64,000 bases of DNA from Escherichia phage vB_EcoM_LMP25 (MK482688.1), one strand, 5' to 3'. Positions 49,771 to 54,846 are shown, counted from the stretch's first letter. Notes: a model not told the origin generated them from the letters alone. Made by a program: numbers and translations.

Positions 49771-49846
49771 TGGAGAATCCGAAGGGACTCGAACCCTTAT
49801 AAACCTGTTTTGCAGACAGGCACATAGCCATTTCTGTCACGGATTC
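49771..49846 (-). tRNA. tRNA-Cys (anticodon GCA)
   Basis: Hand-folded cloverleaf: acceptor GAATCCG/CGGATTC, anticodon loop CTGCAAA, T-loop TTCGAGT, CCA encoded. Confidence 0.75.
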
Positions 49847-49850
49847 AAAT

Positions 49851-49943
49851 TGGAGGAAGATACCAGACTTGAACTGGTACACCGATTTCTCAGCTACTGG
49901 CAGTTTAGCAAACTGCTCCCTTACCTTTTAGGGTTAATCTTCC
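49851..49943 (-). tRNA. tRNA-Ser (GCT), type II
   Basis: Acceptor GGAAGAT/ATCTTCC, anticodon loop TTGCTAA, long variable arm, 93 nt. Confidence 0.7.
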
Positions 49944-49945
49944 AT

Positions 49946-50743
49946 TTATTTCTGTAATGCGCTCTTCATTTCTGGTGTTGCAATAGTGTCAATCACACCA
50001 GTTTTACAGGCATCATCAAACCAGTCTGGTAAGATACCTGCTAAGAACCCATTGATATTCGTTTTAAGGTACTCTGCAATAAGGGAAGCTTCTTCTTCAA
50101 TCATCTGCACAACTTCATCTGCATAAGCTGTAATCTTTGAAATACCTTCATTAATCTTACTAACAGCCTGATTAGCTAAATCAGAAACAGTATCAAGACC
50201 CTTATCAATAGCATCTTGTAAGTCACTTAACACACCATTAACACTATCTAGTGTACTGTTCATCATGTCAATAGCTTTTTGACCATACTCTGTAGCAACA
50301 CCCATGATACCACTGAATGGTGTACAACCAACTTGTTCTCCTGCTGCACCCATAACATTGGAATACCCCTTTGCTACCTGCATACGTGATGAAAACTCAT
50401 CAATAGACTTTTGACCGTAGTCTGTCAGAGTTTTAGTAGTTGCTGTAGTGCTTGTAAGGCTTGTTGTAAAGCTGTTTAGAAGGACTGTTGTAAGTCCAGC
50501 AGCAACAAGTTTCTCCTTCATTGTAGGGTCTGTTACAGAGCTAATAGAGCTTACAAGTGATGTAGAGGCAGCTACGGTTCCACCGAGAACTGCTGCACCA
50601 GTAATAAGTGGGTTAGAAAACCCTTTACCGGTTTTTAAGAGATTAAAAATCTCCTTACCTTGTTCTGTCATCTCTTTCATTAAGCACCTTTGAAATTGGT
50701 AGTCCAGTGGGATTTGAACCCTCTTCTCATGTTTTTCAGACAC
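49946..50743 (-). CDS. Hypothetical protein embedded in the tRNA array
   Basis: 265-aa ORF, Ser/Thr/Ala-rich. Confidence 0.45.
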   Translation of the reverse strand: MSEKHEKRVQIPLDYQFQRCLMKEMTEQGKEIFNLLKTGKGFSNPLITGAAVLGGTVAASTSLVSSISSVTDPTMKEKLVAAGLTTVLLNSFTTSLTSTTATTKTLTDYGQKSIDEFSSRMQVAKGYSNVMGAAGEQVGCTPFSGIMGVATEYGQKAIDMMNSTLDSVNGVLSDLQDAIDKGLDTVSDLANQAVSKINEGISKITAYADEVVQMIEEEASLIAEYLKTNINGFLAGILPDWFDDACKTGVIDTIATPEMKSALQK

Positions 50744-50772
50744 GCGCTTTAACCATATAAGCTACTTGGACT
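50697..50772 (-). tRNA. tRNA-Phe (GAA)
   Basis: Anticodon loop CTGAAAA; T-loop TTCAAAT; acceptor register uncertain by about 1 nt. Confidence 0.6.
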
Positions 50773-50778
50773 ATAAAT

Positions 50779-50854
50779 TGGGGTGACCTACGGGATTTGA
50801 ACCCGTATAGACCATGTTCACAGCATGGGTCATTACCGTTTATGATAAGGCCAC
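50779..50854 (-). tRNA. tRNA-His (GTG)
   Basis: Acceptor GTGGCCT/AGGTCAC, anticodon stem CCATG/CATGG with loop CTGTGAA. Confidence 0.75.
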
Positions 50855-50885
50855 ATTTAAGGACTCTCGCAAGAATCCTTAGAAG

Positions 50886-50961
50886 TGGCAGCGGCATAAG
50901 GATTTGAACCTTAATAGGACAGCTTCAGAGGCTGCTGCATTGCCAGTTATGCTATACCGCT
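50886..50961 (-). tRNA. tRNA-Gln (CTG)
   Basis: Full canonical fold: acceptor AGCGGTA, D-stem GCAT/ATGC, anticodon loop CTCTGAA, T-stem TAAGG/CCTTA, discriminator G. Confidence 0.7.
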
Positions 50962-50966
50962 AAATT

Positions 50967-51038
50967 TGGTACTCCATATCGGATTCGAACCGATACATAA
51001 CACAGATTTTAAGTCTGGCCTCTCTGCCAATTGGAGTA
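50967..51038 (-). tRNA. tRNA-like gene with anticodon loop CTTAAAA (UAA, Leu-type), short D-arm and short variable loop; identity uncertain
   Basis: Good acceptor and T-arm (ATCGG-TTCGAAT-CCGAT), A73, CCA; D-arm region too short for a canonical fold. Confidence 0.45.
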
Positions 51039-51047
51039 ATGGAGCAT

Positions 51048-51123
51048 TGGCGGGGGATGTTGGAATTGAACCAACTTCTTCGATTTCAAAGACCGAGGTT
51101 TTAACCTTGTAAACTAATCCCCT
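51048..51123 (-). tRNA. tRNA-Gln (TTG)
   Basis: Anticodon stem TCGGT/ATCGA with loop CTTTGAA; position 1-72 is an A-C mismatch. Confidence 0.6.
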
Positions 51124-51131
51124 TTAAATCT

Positions 51132-51689
51132 TTACTTTCTCAGTGGATGAATAAAGAATGCCAACATAACTCTTTCCCTTGAGAATGCTCTTTCTTCTGG
51201 GACAACACTTTTTAGTTTCCATCCAATATAAATTCTCCAGTAAAATTGTTTACCAAAGATTTTAATTGATGGGATAAAAGCGAATAATCCCCAAGCATTA
51301 CTATTCCACATTAGGAGATAACCTGTCTGATTATCTTCGGGGTCAGAACTTACGTTGATATTACCTTTCCACTTAGTAACATCTCTTACATCTCTTCCTA
51401 ATACATGGTAAGAGAAGTTATAAGCTTTGTTTCTCCAGAGCCATCCGACTCTTTGCATGTAGACACCTAGTTTACCAATCCATCTAATATTAGCCCATCT
51501 TTTAACGTGGCCTTCATCACCATCAATTGGGTTGTCATATGTCTCCATCCATCTGAACCCGAAAGGTAAGTGTCCTTTCTTCTCACTGTAGAATGGCACT
51601 ACAAAAGGTGCTAAGATAACTGCTAAGATTGCTGCAAATGGCTCTAACAAAGCTAAGAAAATCCATGAAGCATACTTCAAATATCTCAT
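51132..51689 (-). CDS. Hypothetical membrane protein embedded in the tRNA array
   Basis: 185 aa; hydrophobic N-terminal segment, Trp-rich. Confidence 0.45.
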   Translation of the reverse strand: MRYLKYASWIFLALLEPFAAILAVILAPFVVPFYSEKKGHLPFGFRWMETYDNPIDGDEGHVKRWANIRWIGKLGVYMQRVGWLWRNKAYNFSYHVLGRDVRDVTKWKGNINVSSDPEDNQTGYLLMWNSNAWGLFAFIPSIKIFGKQFYWRIYIGWKLKSVVPEERAFSRERVMLAFFIHPLRK

Positions 51690-51708
51690 CTAAATAGCCT
51701 CTTTAAAT

Positions 51709-51784
51709 TGGCGCAGGATAAGGGATTCGAACCCCTATTAACAGCTTCGTAGACTGTTGCTCTATCCATTTGAACTAATCCTGC
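51709..51784 (-). tRNA. tRNA-Arg (ACG)
   Basis: Acceptor GCAGGAT/ATCCTGC, anticodon stem ACAGT/GCTGT with loop CTACGAA. Confidence 0.75.
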
Positions 51785-51789
51785 AAAAT

Positions 51790-53832: not shown

Positions 53833-53963
53833 CCAGACCGTTGTTTATCATCTTAAGTGCTACCATTACACCAACTCGACATCTGCCGAGTGAAGGAATC
53901 GAACCTTCGCCTTTTCTTTACCGAGAAATAGATTGTTTAAGTTTTGCTGTAAACGGTCTTCTG
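53833..53963. repeat. tRNA-spacer repeat, copy a (CCAGACCGT ... TTGCTGTAAACGGTCTTCTG), interrupted by the tRNA fragment
   Basis: Same terminal arms as copies b-d but with about 100 nt between them. Confidence 0.6.
53885..53909 (-). pseudogene. tRNA 3'-half fragment (T-arm plus 3' acceptor strand only)
   Basis: GAAGG-AATCGAA-CCTTC is a canonical T-arm in reverse complement, preceded by a 7-nt acceptor-like strand, but no complementary 5' acceptor strand, D-arm or anticodon arm within 100 nt. Confidence 0.45.
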
Positions 53964-53976
53964 TAAATTTGTTGAG

Positions 53977-54052
53977 CCAGACCAAGTTTTAAATTTTTCA
54001 AAATTAAATTGGCTTGAAATTTTCATACGTTCTTGCTGTATTTGGTCTTCTG
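53977..54052. repeat. tRNA-spacer repeat, copy b (CCAGACCAA ... TTGCTGTATTTGGTCTTCTG)
   Basis: Inverted arms AGACCAA / TTGGTCT around an AT-rich loop of about 55 nt. Confidence 0.65.
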
Positions 54053-54113
54053 CTCCTTTAAAGGATACTCGTAAGAACCCTTTAAGGGAGGGGCTAAATA
54101 GCCCTCTCAAAAT

Positions 54114-54191
54114 TGGCGGTTACGAAGGGATTTGAACCCTCATCATCTCCCGTGACAGGGGAGTATTTTAACCAAATTAAACTACATAACC
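54114..54191 (-). tRNA. tRNA-Asp (GTC)
   Basis: Perfect anticodon stem CTCCC/GGGAG with loop CTGTCAC; acceptor GGTTATG/CGTAACC. Confidence 0.75.
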
Positions 54192-54196
54192 TTTAT

Positions 54197-54284
54197 TGGT
54201 GTGCCGTGTAGGAGTCGAACCTACCGAGTCTCAATGACAAGGGATTTACAGTCCCCACCGCTACCATCTACGGGATAACGACAC
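54197..54284 (-). tRNA. tRNA-Tyr (GTA), type II
   Basis: Acceptor GTGTCGT/ACGGCAC, anticodon stem GGGGA/TCCCT with loop CTGTAAA, long variable arm, 88 nt. Confidence 0.7.
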
Positions 54285-54353
54285 ATTTAATTTCTATTCA
54301 GGCTAAGGACTTGCACCTTACAAATCGGTGAGCAATCGCTTCTCTCCTAAATT

Positions 54354-54430
54354 TGGCGGTTAGTCAGGGATTCGAACCCTGTGCCATTCGCTTAACAGGC
54401 GACCGCACATACCTTATGTGCTTCCTAACC
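54354..54430 (-). tRNA. tRNA-Asn (GTT)
   Basis: D-stem GCAC/GTGC, anticodon loop CTGTTAA, T-stem CAGGG/CCCTG. Confidence 0.7.
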
Positions 54431-54443
54431 ATGTTTAGTATTA

Positions 54444-54508
54444 CCAGACCGTATATTTCAATTTTTTCCGCTAAAAATTTAATAAATATTGCTGTAAACG
54501 GTCTTCTG
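54444..54508. repeat. tRNA-spacer repeat, copy c (CCAGACCGT ... TTGCTGTAAACGGTCTTCTG)
   Basis: Inverted arms AGACCGT / ACGGTCT around an AT-rich loop of about 45 nt; ends 6 nt before the next tRNA. Confidence 0.65.
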
Positions 54509-54514
54509 TAAATT

Positions 54515-54591
54515 TGGAGGCGGGTGCAGGAGTCGAACCTGCCGATACCATGCTAATGAGACATGTGAGACGCCCTTTCTCTATACCCGCA
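54515..54591 (-). tRNA. tRNA (CAT), second CAT-anticodon gene; Met or Ile2
   Basis: D-stem GAGA/TCTC, anticodon stem CATGT/GCATG with loop CTCATTA (unusual T37), T-arm GCAGG-TTCGACT-CCTGC, unpaired 1-72. Confidence 0.55.
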
Positions 54592-54602
54592 ATTCTTAAT
54601 GA

Positions 54603-54674
54603 CCAGACCAAATATCTTCTTTGTCCGATTAACTTTCAGATGAGTAGATTAAGTTTGCTGTAATTGGTCTTCTG
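54603..54674. repeat. tRNA-spacer repeat, copy d (CCAGACCAA ... TTGCTGTAATTGGTCTTCTG)
   Basis: Inverted arms AGACCAA / TTGGTCT; ends 7 nt before tRNA-Glu. Confidence 0.65.
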
Positions 54675-54681
54675 TCAAAAC

Positions 54682-54759
54682 TGGCGTTCCAGAAGGGATT
54701 TGAACCCTCAAATATCCACTTTGAAAGAGTGGTGACTTTACCATTTTGTCTACTGGAAC
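54682..54759 (-). tRNA. tRNA-Glu (TTC)
   Basis: Acceptor GTTCCAG/CTGGAAC, perfect anticodon stem CCACT/AGTGG with loop CTTTCAA. Confidence 0.75.
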
Positions 54760-54765
54760 ATTAAT

Positions 54766-54846
54766 TTGGTCTCCGTTGAAGGATTTGAACCCTCGACCCC
54801 TTGCTCCCAAAGCAAGTGCTGCTAAACCAAACTGAGCTAAACGGAG
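54766..54846 (-). tRNA. tRNA-Pro (TGG)
   Basis: Acceptor CTCCGTT/AACGGAG, perfect anticodon stem CTTGC/GCAAG with loop TTTGGGA. Confidence 0.7.

What the first reader, a model, noticed from the sequence alone, without database searches (positions are those of the whole stretch)
49771..54846. Array of about 26 minus-strand tRNA genes with embedded ORFs, internal promoters and its own terminator
Hand-folding gives tRNAs for Cys, Ser (x2), Phe, His, Gln (x2), Arg, Val, Thr, Gly, Ala, Lys (x2), Ile, Met/CAT (x2), Asp, Tyr, Asn, Glu, Pro plus five of uncertain identity. Two protein-coding genes (49946..50743, 51132..51689) sit inside the array, sigma70-like promoters lie at 53406-53434 and 54966-54994, and a long hairpin terminator (49672-49732) closes it. 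This is a large, internally punctuated tRNA island for a phage.
Basis: partly seen in the sequence, partly recalled or inferred. Interest (0 to 1): 0.5.

Follow-up and report, generated by a model that had tools for sequence, protein, structure and literature searches.

The report
Phage tRNA island hiding Y-like RNAs
The region is the already known tRNA gene island of a Felix O1-type phage, but the gaps between its first tRNAs hold four unannotated small RNAs that look like the missing partner RNAs of the Ro60-like anti-defence protein encoded just upstream.

Summary
ARAGORN finds 25 minus-strand tRNAs at 49771-54846, and Rfam confirms 23 of them plus one weak extra. The window is 100% identical to Escherichia phage vB_EcoM_LMP34 and about 95% identical to Felix O1, whose tRNA island and internal promoter were published in 2010. 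As stated, the finding is therefore already known.

The gaps are the new part. The gene just upstream (55012-56427) has a Ro60 fold. Four modules between the tRNAs share a closing stem followed by UACAGCAA: 54600-54677, 54441-54511, 53974-54055 and 53830-53966. The fourth also carries a T arm, a closed acceptor stem and a D arm, which is the YrlA (bacterial Y RNA) layout.

The same RNA family lies beside homologous Ro60-like genes in distant phages:
- It is found in 51 of 75 distant viral contigs.
- All 71 covariance-model hits are on the gene's strand.
- It also appears in Listeria, Staphylococcus, Klebsiella and Campylobacter phages, and weakly in a Mycobacterium phage.
- It is absent from the T4 and T5 tRNA clusters.

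Rfam's YrlA model does not detect the window copies. Binding and expression are untested. The orthologous protein blocks the Ppl defence without these RNAs.

The parts
55012..56427 (-). Ro60-like protein gene (Pfam DUF2828 + DUF7788; PHROG 850 'RNA-binding protein'); ortholog of Bas63 gp130
   Evidence: Pfam and PHROG hits. AlphaFold model pLDDT 86.7. The top 12 Foldseek PDB hits are all Ro60: 9l5y, 2i91, 1yvp, 2nvo, E about 1e-7, TM 0.40-0.65 (0.54-0.65 for the top hits). The MIDAS residues D279, S281 and S283 are invariant. 97.5% identical to bas63_0130.
54965..54993 (-). Promoter-like site P1 (TTGACA-17-TAATAT), lying within a 12-bp hairpin at 54970-55001
   Evidence: repeat family D13; conserved in phiSUSP1 and Moogle.
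54873..54902 (-).
54682..54846 (-). tRNA-Pro(UGG) 54767-54846 and tRNA-Glu(UUC) 54682-54759
54600..54677 (-). Y-like RNA module a (short form): UGAC-AGA-AGACCAA-UUACAGCAA ... UUGGUCU-G-GUCA
   Evidence: The minimum-energy fold recovers the stem. R1 covariance model 56.9 bits, E 8e-11 (this copy is a seed of the model). Conserved in Felix O1, Bas63, SUSP1 and Moogle.
54515..54591 (-). Atypical tRNA-Met(CAU) with a U1-C72 mismatch; called by ARAGORN only
   Evidence: A compensatory T-stem change in Moogle.
54441..54511 (-). Y-like RNA module b (short form)
   Evidence: R1 65.6 bits, E 8e-13 (a seed of the model). The outer helix UUAC/GUAA becomes UUGC/GCAA in SUSP1.
54114..54430 (-). tRNA-Asn 54354-54430, structured 69-nt spacer 54285-54353, tRNA-Tyr 54197-54284, tRNA-Asp 54114-54191
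53974..54055 (-). Y-like RNA module c1 (short form)
   Evidence: R1 54.7 bits, E 3e-10 (a seed of the model).
53830..53966 (-). Y-like RNA module c2 (long form): closing stem + UACAGCAA + V hairpin + T arm (GAAGGUUCGAUUCCUUC) + closed acceptor-like stem (ACUCGGC-agau-GUCGAGU) + UG + D arm (GUGUAAUGGUAGCAC)
   Evidence: Fold -33.4 kcal/mol, z -2.4, recovers every helix. R2 core model 73.7 bits (a seed of the model). The acceptor-like stem is fully compensated in SUSP1 and Moogle.
53684..53831 (-). Structured RNA 'd': a 24-bp closing stem around about 100 nt, directly 5' of tRNA-Lys; function unknown
   Evidence: Inverted repeat I2. Fold -47.9 kcal/mol, z -5.7. Stem compensated in SUSP1.
53450..53683 (-). 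tRNA-Lys(UUU), tRNA-Met/CAU (three G-C pairs in the anticodon stem), tRNA-Ile(GAU)
53406..53434 (-). Internal promoter-like site P3 (TTGACA-17-TATAGT), equal to Felix O1 P45
53034..53112 (-). Degenerate tRNA-like element: 7-bp acceptor stem with G3-U70, a UCU anticodon-like loop, T arm and CCA, but no D arm
   Evidence: Rfam tRNA 31.7 bits. Not called by ARAGORN. SUSP1 and Moogle carry a normal tRNA-Arg(UCU) at this position.
51709..52791 (-). tRNAs Ser(UGA), Leu(UAG), Lys(CUU), Ala, Gly, Thr, Val, Leu(CAA), Arg(ACG), with structured spacers at 52447-52545 and 51944-52040
51132..51689 (-). Embedded protein gene, DUF7338
50697..51123 (-). tRNAs Gln(UUG), Leu(UAA), Gln(CUG), His, Phe
49946..50680 (-).
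49771..49943 (-). tRNA-Ser(GCU) and tRNA-Cys
49672..49732 (-). Intrinsic terminator: a long imperfect hairpin followed by U6

Best explanation
The region is the Felixounavirus tRNA island. It is transcribed leftward on the minus strand from host-type promoters at about 54993, 54902 and 53434, and it ends at the hairpin-U6 terminator at 49672-49732. It yields 25 tRNAs, nearly all with an encoded CCA.

Four Y RNA-like non-coding RNAs are interleaved with the first six tRNAs. Each is closed by a 7-8 bp stem that begins AGR and ends YCU-G. The conserved single-stranded motif U(A/U)CAGCAA follows the 5' strand of the stem. In Ounavirinae a small AGA/G internal loop and a further 4-bp helix lie outside this stem. 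Three modules are short (71-82 nt). The fourth (137 nt) contains a circularly closed tRNA mimic, in the order T arm, closed acceptor stem, D arm, as in bacterial YrlA.

Inferred steps:
- The tRNA-processing enzymes that cut out the flanking tRNAs also release these RNAs.
- The stem plus UACAGCAA is the docking site for the Ro60-like ring protein encoded immediately upstream.
- The resulting particles act on structured or damaged RNA, probably tRNA, during infection, as part of the phage's counter-defence and translation toolkit.

What is shown: the tRNAs; the Ro60 fold of the protein; the RNA structures and their covariation; and the family-wide linkage of this RNA family to Ro60-like genes. 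What is inferred: expression, processing, binding and function.
For: tRNAs. Identity with the known island.

Ro60 fold. MIDAS residues.

Modules in the window:
- The 8-mer AGAAGACC occurs four times in the array, out of six in the 64-kb window counting both strands.
- Minimum-energy folds recover the same stem in all four.
- There are compensatory changes between the copies and in SUSP1 and Moogle.

Family level:
- The motif T[ATC]CAGCAA occurs on the gene's strand 40 times in the 1 kb upstream and 53 times in the 1 kb downstream of homologous genes. Background is about 5 per kb, and the other strand has about 6.
- In an alignment of 22 short modules the closing stem is 97% paired, and 5 of 7 pairs change on both sides. 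Slid controls give 30-41% paired over all 11 pairs counted.
- Covariance model R1 gives 71 hits at E<=0.1 in 75 distant loci, all on the gene's strand, covering 51 loci.
- R1 also hits the unannotated gaps next to the gene in Listeria List-36, Staphylococcus SEP9, Klebsiella FBKp34 and Campylobacter F360, and weakly in Mycobacterium Lolly9. It finds nothing in the T4 and T5 tRNA regions.
- tRNA-mimic cores lie beside the gene in at least 10 distant loci. In the seed alignment 99% of cells are paired, and all 7 acceptor-like pairs change on both sides.
- Rfam's YrlA model gives sub-threshold hits on the long modules of FBKp34 (39.6 bits, E 2e-7) and Lolly9.
- Reverse test: of 17 model-confirmed modules found by DNA pattern alone, 8 have the gene in the held stretch on the same strand, and 2 more lie on contigs known to carry it.

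Literature: the authors who studied Bas63 gp130 speculated that Y RNAs hide among the annotated tRNAs. The Ro60 of Thermus phage phiLo binds two adjacent Y-like RNAs.
Against: There are no expression, processing or binding data.

Bas63 gp130 alone, expressed from a plasmid or inserted into T7, restores growth on the Ppl strain. These RNAs are therefore not required for that activity.

Rfam's YrlA model does not detect the window's long module, even in a 201-nt search. The known Ro-binding motif GNCGAA is absent.

The seeds for the stem alignment were chosen partly because they had a stem, so the pairing percentages are inflated. An unselected stem-length test was only moderately significant (mean 7.3 against 6.5 bp, p 2e-6).

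24 of the 75 distant loci gave no hit.

The protein is in Pfam DUF2828, not TROVE. Its sequence match to Ro60 alone is insignificant (E 0.9).
Confidence: 0.62

Rival explanations
1. The modules are only spacers or processing signals for maturing the polycistronic tRNA precursor (RNase E, III or P entry sites, or folding insulators). They have no relation to the Ro60-like protein.
For: They sit directly between tRNAs. In some distant loci they lie beside lone tRNAs 6-8 kb from the gene. Other long hairpins precede tRNAs in this array. gp130 works without them against Ppl.
Against: Many distant loci have the modules right next to the Ro60-like gene with no tRNA within 10 kb, for example L010, L012, L015, L019, L022, L024 and L026. 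The T4 and T5 tRNA clusters have none. A conserved single-stranded 8-mer plus a tRNA-mimic domain is more than a processing site needs.
Confidence: 0.12
2. The modules are cis-acting sites on the mRNA of the Ro60-like gene or its neighbours. They would serve for autoregulation or transcript stabilisation by the protein, and are not free-standing RNAs.
For: They are always on the gene's strand and usually within a few hundred bases upstream or downstream of it.
Against: In this window two promoter-like sites and two tRNAs separate them from the gene. They occur in 1-6 copies. Some lie kilobases away next to tRNAs. One class carries a complete tRNA mimic, as the free-standing YrlA does.
Confidence: 0.1
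3. The modules are decaying tRNA pseudogenes and chance repeats left by rearrangements in the island, which homing endonucleases frequently invade. They have no function.
For: The island does contain degenerate tRNA-like remnants at 53034-53112 and about 52810-52895. Felix O1 has three HNH genes inserted here.
Against: Compensatory base changes keep every helix intact. The motif and architecture persist across phages of Proteobacteria, Firmicutes and Campylobacter.
Confidence: 0.03

Closest known systems
Felix O1 tRNA gene cluster (Whichard et al. 2010, PMC3185647)
   Same: It is the same locus. It shows 95.5% DNA identity over 5.7 kb, the same tRNA order, the same two embedded ORFs and the same internal promoter (P45).
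   Different: The window lacks the three HNH endonuclease genes that Felix O1 carries inside the island. The publication lists 22 tRNAs and no non-tRNA RNAs. Ser x2, the second CAU tRNA and the four modules are not in it.
YrlA / bacterial Y RNAs (Chen et al. 2014, PMC4201824; Rfam RF02553)
   Same: They are encoded next to a Ro60-type protein. The 5' and 3' ends pair in a closing stem with a conserved purine-rich motif on the 5' side. The order is V hairpin, T arm, closed acceptor-like stem, D arm. Short YrlB-like forms accompany long forms. The long modules of related phages score 38-40 bits on the YrlA model.
   Different: The motif is U(A/U)CAGCAA, not GNCGAA(N)G. The partner protein is Pfam DUF2828/DUF7788, not TROVE. 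The window copies do not score on RF02553 at all. They are embedded in a tRNA array, not in an rsr-rtcBA operon.
Thermus phage phiLo Ro60 with Yrl1/Yrl2 (NAR 2025, PMC12135203; PDB 9L5Y, 9KOP)
   Same: A phage Ro60-fold protein with two small Y-like RNAs encoded beside it. It is the best structural match to the window protein.
   Different: Its RNAs carry the CGAA motif. No tRNA array is involved. Binding and PNPase recruitment were shown experimentally there and not here.
T4 rnaC/rnaD (species 1 and 2 RNAs) and T5 RNA1, RNA2, RNA3, RNAI, RNAIII, RNAIV
   Same: They are stable small RNAs of unknown function, co-located with tRNAs in phage tRNA clusters. Some are annotated as tRNA-like.
   Different: Neither covariance model matches them beyond tandem-tRNA junctions. 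T4 and T5 did not appear among the 709 phage records that hold the Ro60-like gene.

Membership tests
tRNA genes (Rfam RF00005) | Cloverleaf scoring above the curated covariance-model threshold | tested here: met
   23 of the 25 ARAGORN genes score 33-65 bits against a threshold of 29. Tyr and Met 54515-54591 are called by ARAGORN only.
Felixounavirus tRNA island | Sequence homology and synteny with the Felix O1 island | tested here: met
   100% identity to LMP34 and 95.5% to Felix O1 over 5.7 kb, with the same gene order.
Ro60 / TROVE proteins (gene 55012-56427) | Ring of helical repeats plus a von Willebrand A domain (the Ro60 fold) | tested here: met
   Model pLDDT 86.7. The top 12 PDB hits are all Ro60, aligned over about 520 columns, with TM 0.40-0.65 (0.54-0.65 for the top hits).
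Ro60 / TROVE proteins (gene 55012-56427) | MIDAS motif DxSxS in the vWA domain | tested here: met
   D279, S281 and S283 are invariant in 43 homologs. This stretch aligns to the Xenopus Ro60 MIDAS.
Ro60 / TROVE proteins (gene 55012-56427) | Match to Pfam TROVE (PF05731), or significant sequence similarity to solved Ro60 | tested here: not met
   Pfam hits are DUF2828 and DUF7788 only. The profile search against PDB sequences gives E 0.9 for 1yvp.
YrlA / Y RNA (Rfam RF02553) | Encoded adjacent to a Ro60-type gene | tested here: met
   The modules start 335 nt downstream of the gene on the same strand. The same holds in 51 of 75 distant loci.
YrlA / Y RNA (Rfam RF02553) | tRNA-like domain in the order T arm, closed acceptor-like stem, D arm, inside a 5'/3' closing stem | tested here: met
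   Met for module c2 only. Modules a, b and c1 lack it and resemble the short YrlB type.
YrlA / Y RNA (Rfam RF02553) | Conserved 5' motif GNCGAA(N0-1)G | tested here: not met
   The conserved motif is U(A/U)CAGCAA.
YrlA / Y RNA (Rfam RF02553) | Score at or above the family's gathering threshold (69 bits) | tested here: not met
   No hit on the window modules at E<=10. Related phage modules score 37.7-39.6 bits. L059 gives none.
YrlA / Y RNA (Rfam RF02553) | Physical association with the Ro60 protein; tRNA-type modifications | not testable with these tools
   Needs immunoprecipitation, gel-shift assays and modification mapping.
tmRNA (for the element at 53034-53112) | tRNA-Ala-like domain joined to a tag-encoding mRNA-like domain | tested here: not met
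   ARAGORN finds no tmRNA. Rfam tmRNA scores 22 and 16 bits against a threshold of 47. The upstream 290 nt lie outside the tRNA-like fold, not inside it.
Intrinsic terminator (49672-49732) | Stable hairpin followed directly by a U tract | tested here: met
   -25.4 kcal/mol, z -4.5, then UUUUUU. The simple scanner missed it because the stem is imperfect and the loop is long.

The most novel reading that the evidence does not exclude
Phage Ro60-like proteins of the DUF2828 family are present in more than 700 sequenced phages of Gram-negative and Gram-positive hosts. They would have their own, so far undescribed class of Y RNAs, defined by an AGR...YCU-G closing stem and a U(A/U)CAGCAA motif. The class comes in short and tRNA-mimic forms and is often co-transcribed with phage tRNAs. 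In Felix O1-type phages, four such RNAs plus the protein would form particles that monitor or protect the tRNA pool, or recruit host exonucleases, as part of counter-defence.
Probability: 0.45. Interest if true: 0.8.

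Novelty: new variant of a known kind. Interest (0 to 1): 0.6.

Why it matters
The tRNA island itself adds nothing new. The embedded RNAs do matter.

Ro60-like genes are widespread in phages. The Felix O1-type ortholog (Bas63 gp130) was recently shown to defeat a bacterial defence system, and its RNA partners were only guessed at. The coordinates, the consensus and the two covariance models given here make that question directly testable through pull-downs, deletions and structural work.

They also offer a way to annotate the same RNAs in hundreds of phages used for typing and therapy. 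In current records these stretches are blank or carry spurious small ORFs.

The results extend Y RNA biology to a second protein family and a second recognition motif. They also link Y RNAs physically to phage tRNA arrays.

Tried and rejected
1. Rfam YrlA on the window and on L059 gave no hit, so membership of RF02553 is not claimed.

2. A tmRNA reading of 53034-53112 plus its upstream leader was rejected. SUSP1 and Moogle carry an ordinary tRNA-Arg(UCU) at that position.

3. A missing tRNA-Trp at about 52810-52895: the acceptor stem, T arm and a CCA-containing loop are visible by eye. ARAGORN at relaxed thresholds gives only a poor, ambiguous fold. I left it as a remnant.

4. An alternative pairing in which GGUCUGG (5') and CAGAAGACC (3') flank tRNA-Met was rejected. 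The copy-specific outer pairs fit only the within-gap pairing: 4 of 4 against 1-3 of 4 (sequence, positions).

5. A loose stem-plus-motif descriptor had too much background: 931 hits on the gene strand, 814 on the other strand and 744 in shuffled sequence. I replaced it with motif position statistics and covariance models.

6. MAFFT alignment of whole long modules misaligned the acceptor-like and D arms. I used a 7-sequence core alignment in a single register instead.

7. R2 hits below about 30 bits are junctions between tandem tRNAs, not modules. The automatic alignment A5 was therefore not used for pair counts.

8. Papers that might already describe this (the Burroughs and Aravind 2016 paper and the Sim and Wolin reviews, looked up by remembered PMC id) were not held in the library. 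Full-text searches for 'Y RNA' with 'Felix O1', and for 'DUF2828', found nothing relevant.

9. Codon-usage matching of the anticodon set was not redone. Whichard et al. 2010 covered it.

Full report
**What the window is.** The 5.7 kb around the finding is 100% identical to Escherichia phage vB_EcoM_LMP34 and LMP33, and about 95% identical to Salmonella phage Felix O1. 410 phage records match it, nearly all Ounavirinae. The Felix O1 genome paper already describes 22 clustered tRNAs, two of them flagged as pseudo (Tyr and His), and a host-type promoter P45, TTGACA(17)TATAGT, inside the cluster.

**Checking the observation.**
- ARAGORN finds 25 tRNA genes, all on the minus strand, between 49771 and 54846.
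- Rfam's tRNA model at its curated threshold finds 24. It misses Tyr (54197-54284) and the Met at 54515-54591, and it adds a weak element at 53034-53112.
Three of its 'uncertain' ones are Leu isoacceptors.
- Nineteen amino acids are covered, and Trp is missing.
- 24 of the 25 tRNAs encode CCA. Most neighbours are 1-7 nt apart.
- The embedded ORFs are real conserved phage genes, DUF7217 and DUF7338. The first one starts at 50680, not 50743.
- The three best sigma-70-like matches on the minus strand are at 53434-53406, 54993-54965 and 54902-54873. They share an A-rich upstream element and are conserved in phiSUSP1 and Moogle. The total count of promoter-like matches is no higher than in shuffles.
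- The hairpin at 49672-49732 is stable (-25.4 kcal/mol, z -4.5) and is followed by U6.

**The upstream gene.** The ORF at 55012-56427, on the same strand and just 5' of the island, matches Pfam DUF2828 and DUF7788 and PHROG 850 'RNA-binding protein'. An AlphaFold model built with 43 homologs has mean pLDDT 86.7. Its twelve best matches among solved structures are all Ro60: Thermus phage phiLo, Xenopus and Deinococcus, E about 1e-7, about 520 aligned columns, TM 0.40-0.65 (0.54-0.65 for the top hits). The DxSxS metal site of the vWA domain is invariant. Sequence alone does not show the relationship.

The protein is 97.5% identical to bas63_0130 of phage JohannRWettstein (Bas63). A 2024 preprint showed that gp130 counters the Ppl defence system. 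It noted the Ro60-like fold and speculated, without identifying any RNA, that some annotated tRNAs downstream might be Y RNAs. Homologs occur in 709 phage records: Mycobacterium ('Ro-like RNA binding protein'), Listeria, Staphylococcus, Enterococcus, Vibrio, Campylobacter and others.

**What is in the gaps.** Read on the minus strand, four gaps contain one shared design. A 4-bp outer helix is followed by AGA opposite G, then a 7-8 bp helix AGACCNN/NNGGUCU, then UACAGCAA directly after the 5' strand. The modules are:
- a: 54600-54677, between Glu and Met
- b: 54441-54511, between Met and Asn
- c1: 53974-54055
- c2: 53830-53966

The 8-mer AGAAGACC occurs four times in the array, out of six in the whole window counting both strands. 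Minimum-energy folds recover the same closing structure in all four. For c2 the fold also gives a small hairpin, a perfect T arm, a 7-bp stem closed by a 4-nt loop, and a D arm with the A14, G18 and G19 positions in place. That order is the layout of the bacterial Y RNA YrlA.

The outer helices differ between copies in a compensated way: UGAC/GUCA, UUAC/GUAA and GAGC/GCUC. phiSUSP1 and Moogle keep all four modules with further compensation. For example, the closed stem of c2 reads ACUCGGC/GUCGAGU in the window, ACACG/CGUGU in SUSP1 and ACCCUUC/GAAGGGU in Moogle. Felix O1 and Bas63 have the same four. Public records leave these stretches blank or cover them with short hypothetical ORFs.

**Is the link to the Ro60-like gene general?** I fetched 80 viral contigs encoding homologs of the protein, 75 of them only 39-48% identical to it.
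- A blind scan for T arms outside called tRNAs, followed by a hairpin, found T arm, closed stem and D arm modules on the gene's strand beside the gene in a dozen distant loci. These share the closing stem and a U(U/A)CAGCAA motif.
- The 8-mer T[ATC]CAGCAA occurs 40 and 53 times in the 1 kb upstream and downstream of the gene on its strand. Elsewhere it occurs about 5 times per kb, and about 6 times on the other strand. 53 of the 75 loci have a copy within 1.5 kb, often as tandem pairs about 60 nt apart.
- In an alignment of 22 short modules from 12 distant contigs plus the window, SUSP1 and Moogle, the 7-bp stem is 97% paired and five pairs change on both sides. One pair shows CG, AU, UA and GC. 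Sliding the partner strand drops pairing over all 11 counted pairs to 30-41%. These seeds were picked with a stem in view, so the figure is generous. The outer helix is specific to Ounavirinae (61% paired overall).
- A covariance model of this alignment (R1) finds only a, b and c1 in the 64-kb window. In the 75 distant loci it gives 71 hits at E<=0.1, every one on the gene's strand, in 51 loci. Some hits 6-8 kb from the gene sit beside lone tRNAs.
- In annotated phages, R1 hits the unannotated gap next to the gene in Listeria List-36 (two hits, best E 2e-8), Staphylococcus SEP9 (two), Klebsiella FBKp34 (two, between the gene and its tRNA array) and Campylobacter F360 (one), and weakly in Mycobacterium Lolly9. 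It finds nothing in 35 kb of T4 and T5 tRNA regions.
- A second model of the tRNA-mimic core (R2) scores c2 at 73.7 bits and finds non-seed cores beside the gene in further loci, including Lolly9 (47 bits) and FBKp34 (38 bits). Its weak hits are junctions of tandem tRNAs. In the seed alignment 99% of cells pair, and all seven pairs of the closed stem change on both sides.
- In the reverse direction, a DNA pattern taken from the RNA alone was scanned over IMG/VR and 80 matching loci were read. R1 confirmed 17 of them. Eight of those hold the Ro60-like gene in the held stretch, on the same strand and mostly within 300 nt. Two more lie on contigs known to carry it. The other 63 look like chance matches.

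**Relation to known families.** Rfam 15 has no family that reaches threshold on these RNAs. Its YrlA model gives significant but sub-threshold hits on the long modules of FBKp34 (39.6 bits, threshold 69, E 2e-7) and Lolly9 (37.7 bits), aligning the T arm, closed stem and D arm. It gives nothing on the window's c2, even in a 201-nt search. The YrlA 5' motif GNCGAA is replaced by UACAGCAA. Chen et al. searched only next to TROVE-domain proteins, which would have excluded this protein family. I therefore treat the RNAs as working like Y RNAs, and c2 like YrlA, without filing them under RF02553.

T4 rnaC and rnaD and the T5 stable RNAs are precedents for non-tRNA RNAs in phage tRNA clusters, but neither model matches them.

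**Mechanism and its limits.** The following are inferred:
- The modules are co-transcribed with the tRNAs from P1 and P2.
- They are released when RNase P and the 3' processing enzymes excise the flanking tRNAs.
- The Ro60-like ring binds them through the stem and the UACAGCAA motif.
- The particles act on structured or damaged RNA during infection, by analogy with the Ro60/Y RNA/PNPase complexes shown for bacteria and for phage phiLo.

The main evidence against an obligatory partnership is that gp130 alone rescues T7 on the Ppl strain. The RNAs may tune or redirect the protein rather than enable it, or they may serve a different activity. Nothing here shows expression or binding.

**Verdict.** The value lies in the gaps: four conserved Y RNA-like genes, one of them a tRNA mimic. 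They belong to a widespread, apparently undescribed RNA family tied to phage Ro60-like genes.

Noticed in passing
window 53034-53112 (-): An odd tRNA-like element. It has a 7-bp acceptor stem with a G3-U70 pair, A73 and CCA, a good T arm, and an anticodon-type hairpin with loop CUUCUAA (UCU, Arg), but no D arm and a 23-nt variable region. SUSP1 and Moogle carry a normal tRNA-Arg(UCU) at this position. Its hairpin sequence CGGUCUUCU is exactly complementary to the AGAAGACCG at the 5' end of modules b and c2.
   Followed up: partly
window 53684-53831 (-): A 148-nt RNA-like element with a 24-bp closing stem around a branched interior (-47.9 kcal/mol, z -5.7). It lies directly 5' of tRNA-Lys. The stem is compensated in phiSUSP1. 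There is no Rfam match, and its function is unknown.
   Followed up: partly
window 52447-52545 (-), 53113-53150 (-), 51944-52040 (-), 54285-54353 (-): Further strongly structured spacers. Long near-perfect hairpins sit immediately 5' of tRNA-Leu(UAG) and of the Arg-like element (fold z -5.6 for 52447-52545 and -3.6 for the 53113-53260 stretch containing the 53113-53150 hairpin). Structured spacers of 97 nt and 69 nt have z -3.7 and -2.6. They may be RNase III-type processing sites.
   Followed up: no
window about 52810-52895 (-): A tRNA-like remnant with acceptor stem AUGGGAC/GUCCCAU, a T arm, an encoded CCA end and a loop containing CCA (the Trp anticodon). Trp is the one amino acid the island lacks. 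ARAGORN gives only a poor fold at relaxed settings.
   Followed up: partly
window 54515-54591 (-) and 53527-53603 (-): The two CAU tRNAs differ. The first has a U1-C72 mismatch and an unusual D loop, is missed by Rfam, and is flanked on both sides by Y-like modules. The second has three G-C pairs in the anticodon stem. One of them may be an AUA-reading Ile2 or an initiator-type tRNA.
   Followed up: no
window 52702-52791 (-): tRNA-Ser(UGA) is the only one of the 25 tRNAs without an encoded CCA. Its 3' end reads GCC-U.
   Followed up: no
window 54970-55001 (-): A 12-bp hairpin, AAAGGGUAU...AUACCCUUU, encloses the -35 box of promoter P1, just after the stop codon of the Ro60-like gene. The arms are conserved in SUSP1 and Moogle while the loop varies.
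   Followed up: no
window 49591-49608 (-): A second terminator-like hairpin, GACGGU...ACCGUC followed by U6, lies downstream of the main terminator and before the next gene (49348-49548).
   Followed up: no
L001 (MK482690) and L212 (MZ501086, Bas63): Public annotations place short hypothetical CDSs over the RNA modules and even over tRNAs. Examples are QBQ76029-QBQ76031, and bas63_0137 and bas63_0138 on the opposite strand over c2 and d. These are probably spurious.
   Followed up: partly
L002 (Felix O1, NC_005282) 4226-4639, 5557-5949, 6437-6922: Felix O1 carries three HNH homing-endonuclease genes inside the island that the window lacks. The island is a hotspot for such insertions.
   Followed up: no
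L086 (Listeria phage List-36) 926-1477, 5310-6455: A near-threshold ROOL RNA (91.5 bits, threshold 99.1) lies about 1 kb upstream of the Ro60-like gene. A 'tRNA splicing ligase' (RtcB) gene lies 1.3 kb downstream. Together with the tRNAs and two Y-like modules, this forms an RNA-centred neighbourhood.
   Followed up: no
L027 15696-15922: A group I intron (71.5 bits) lies 4 kb downstream of the Ro60-like gene in an uncultured viral contig.
   Followed up: no
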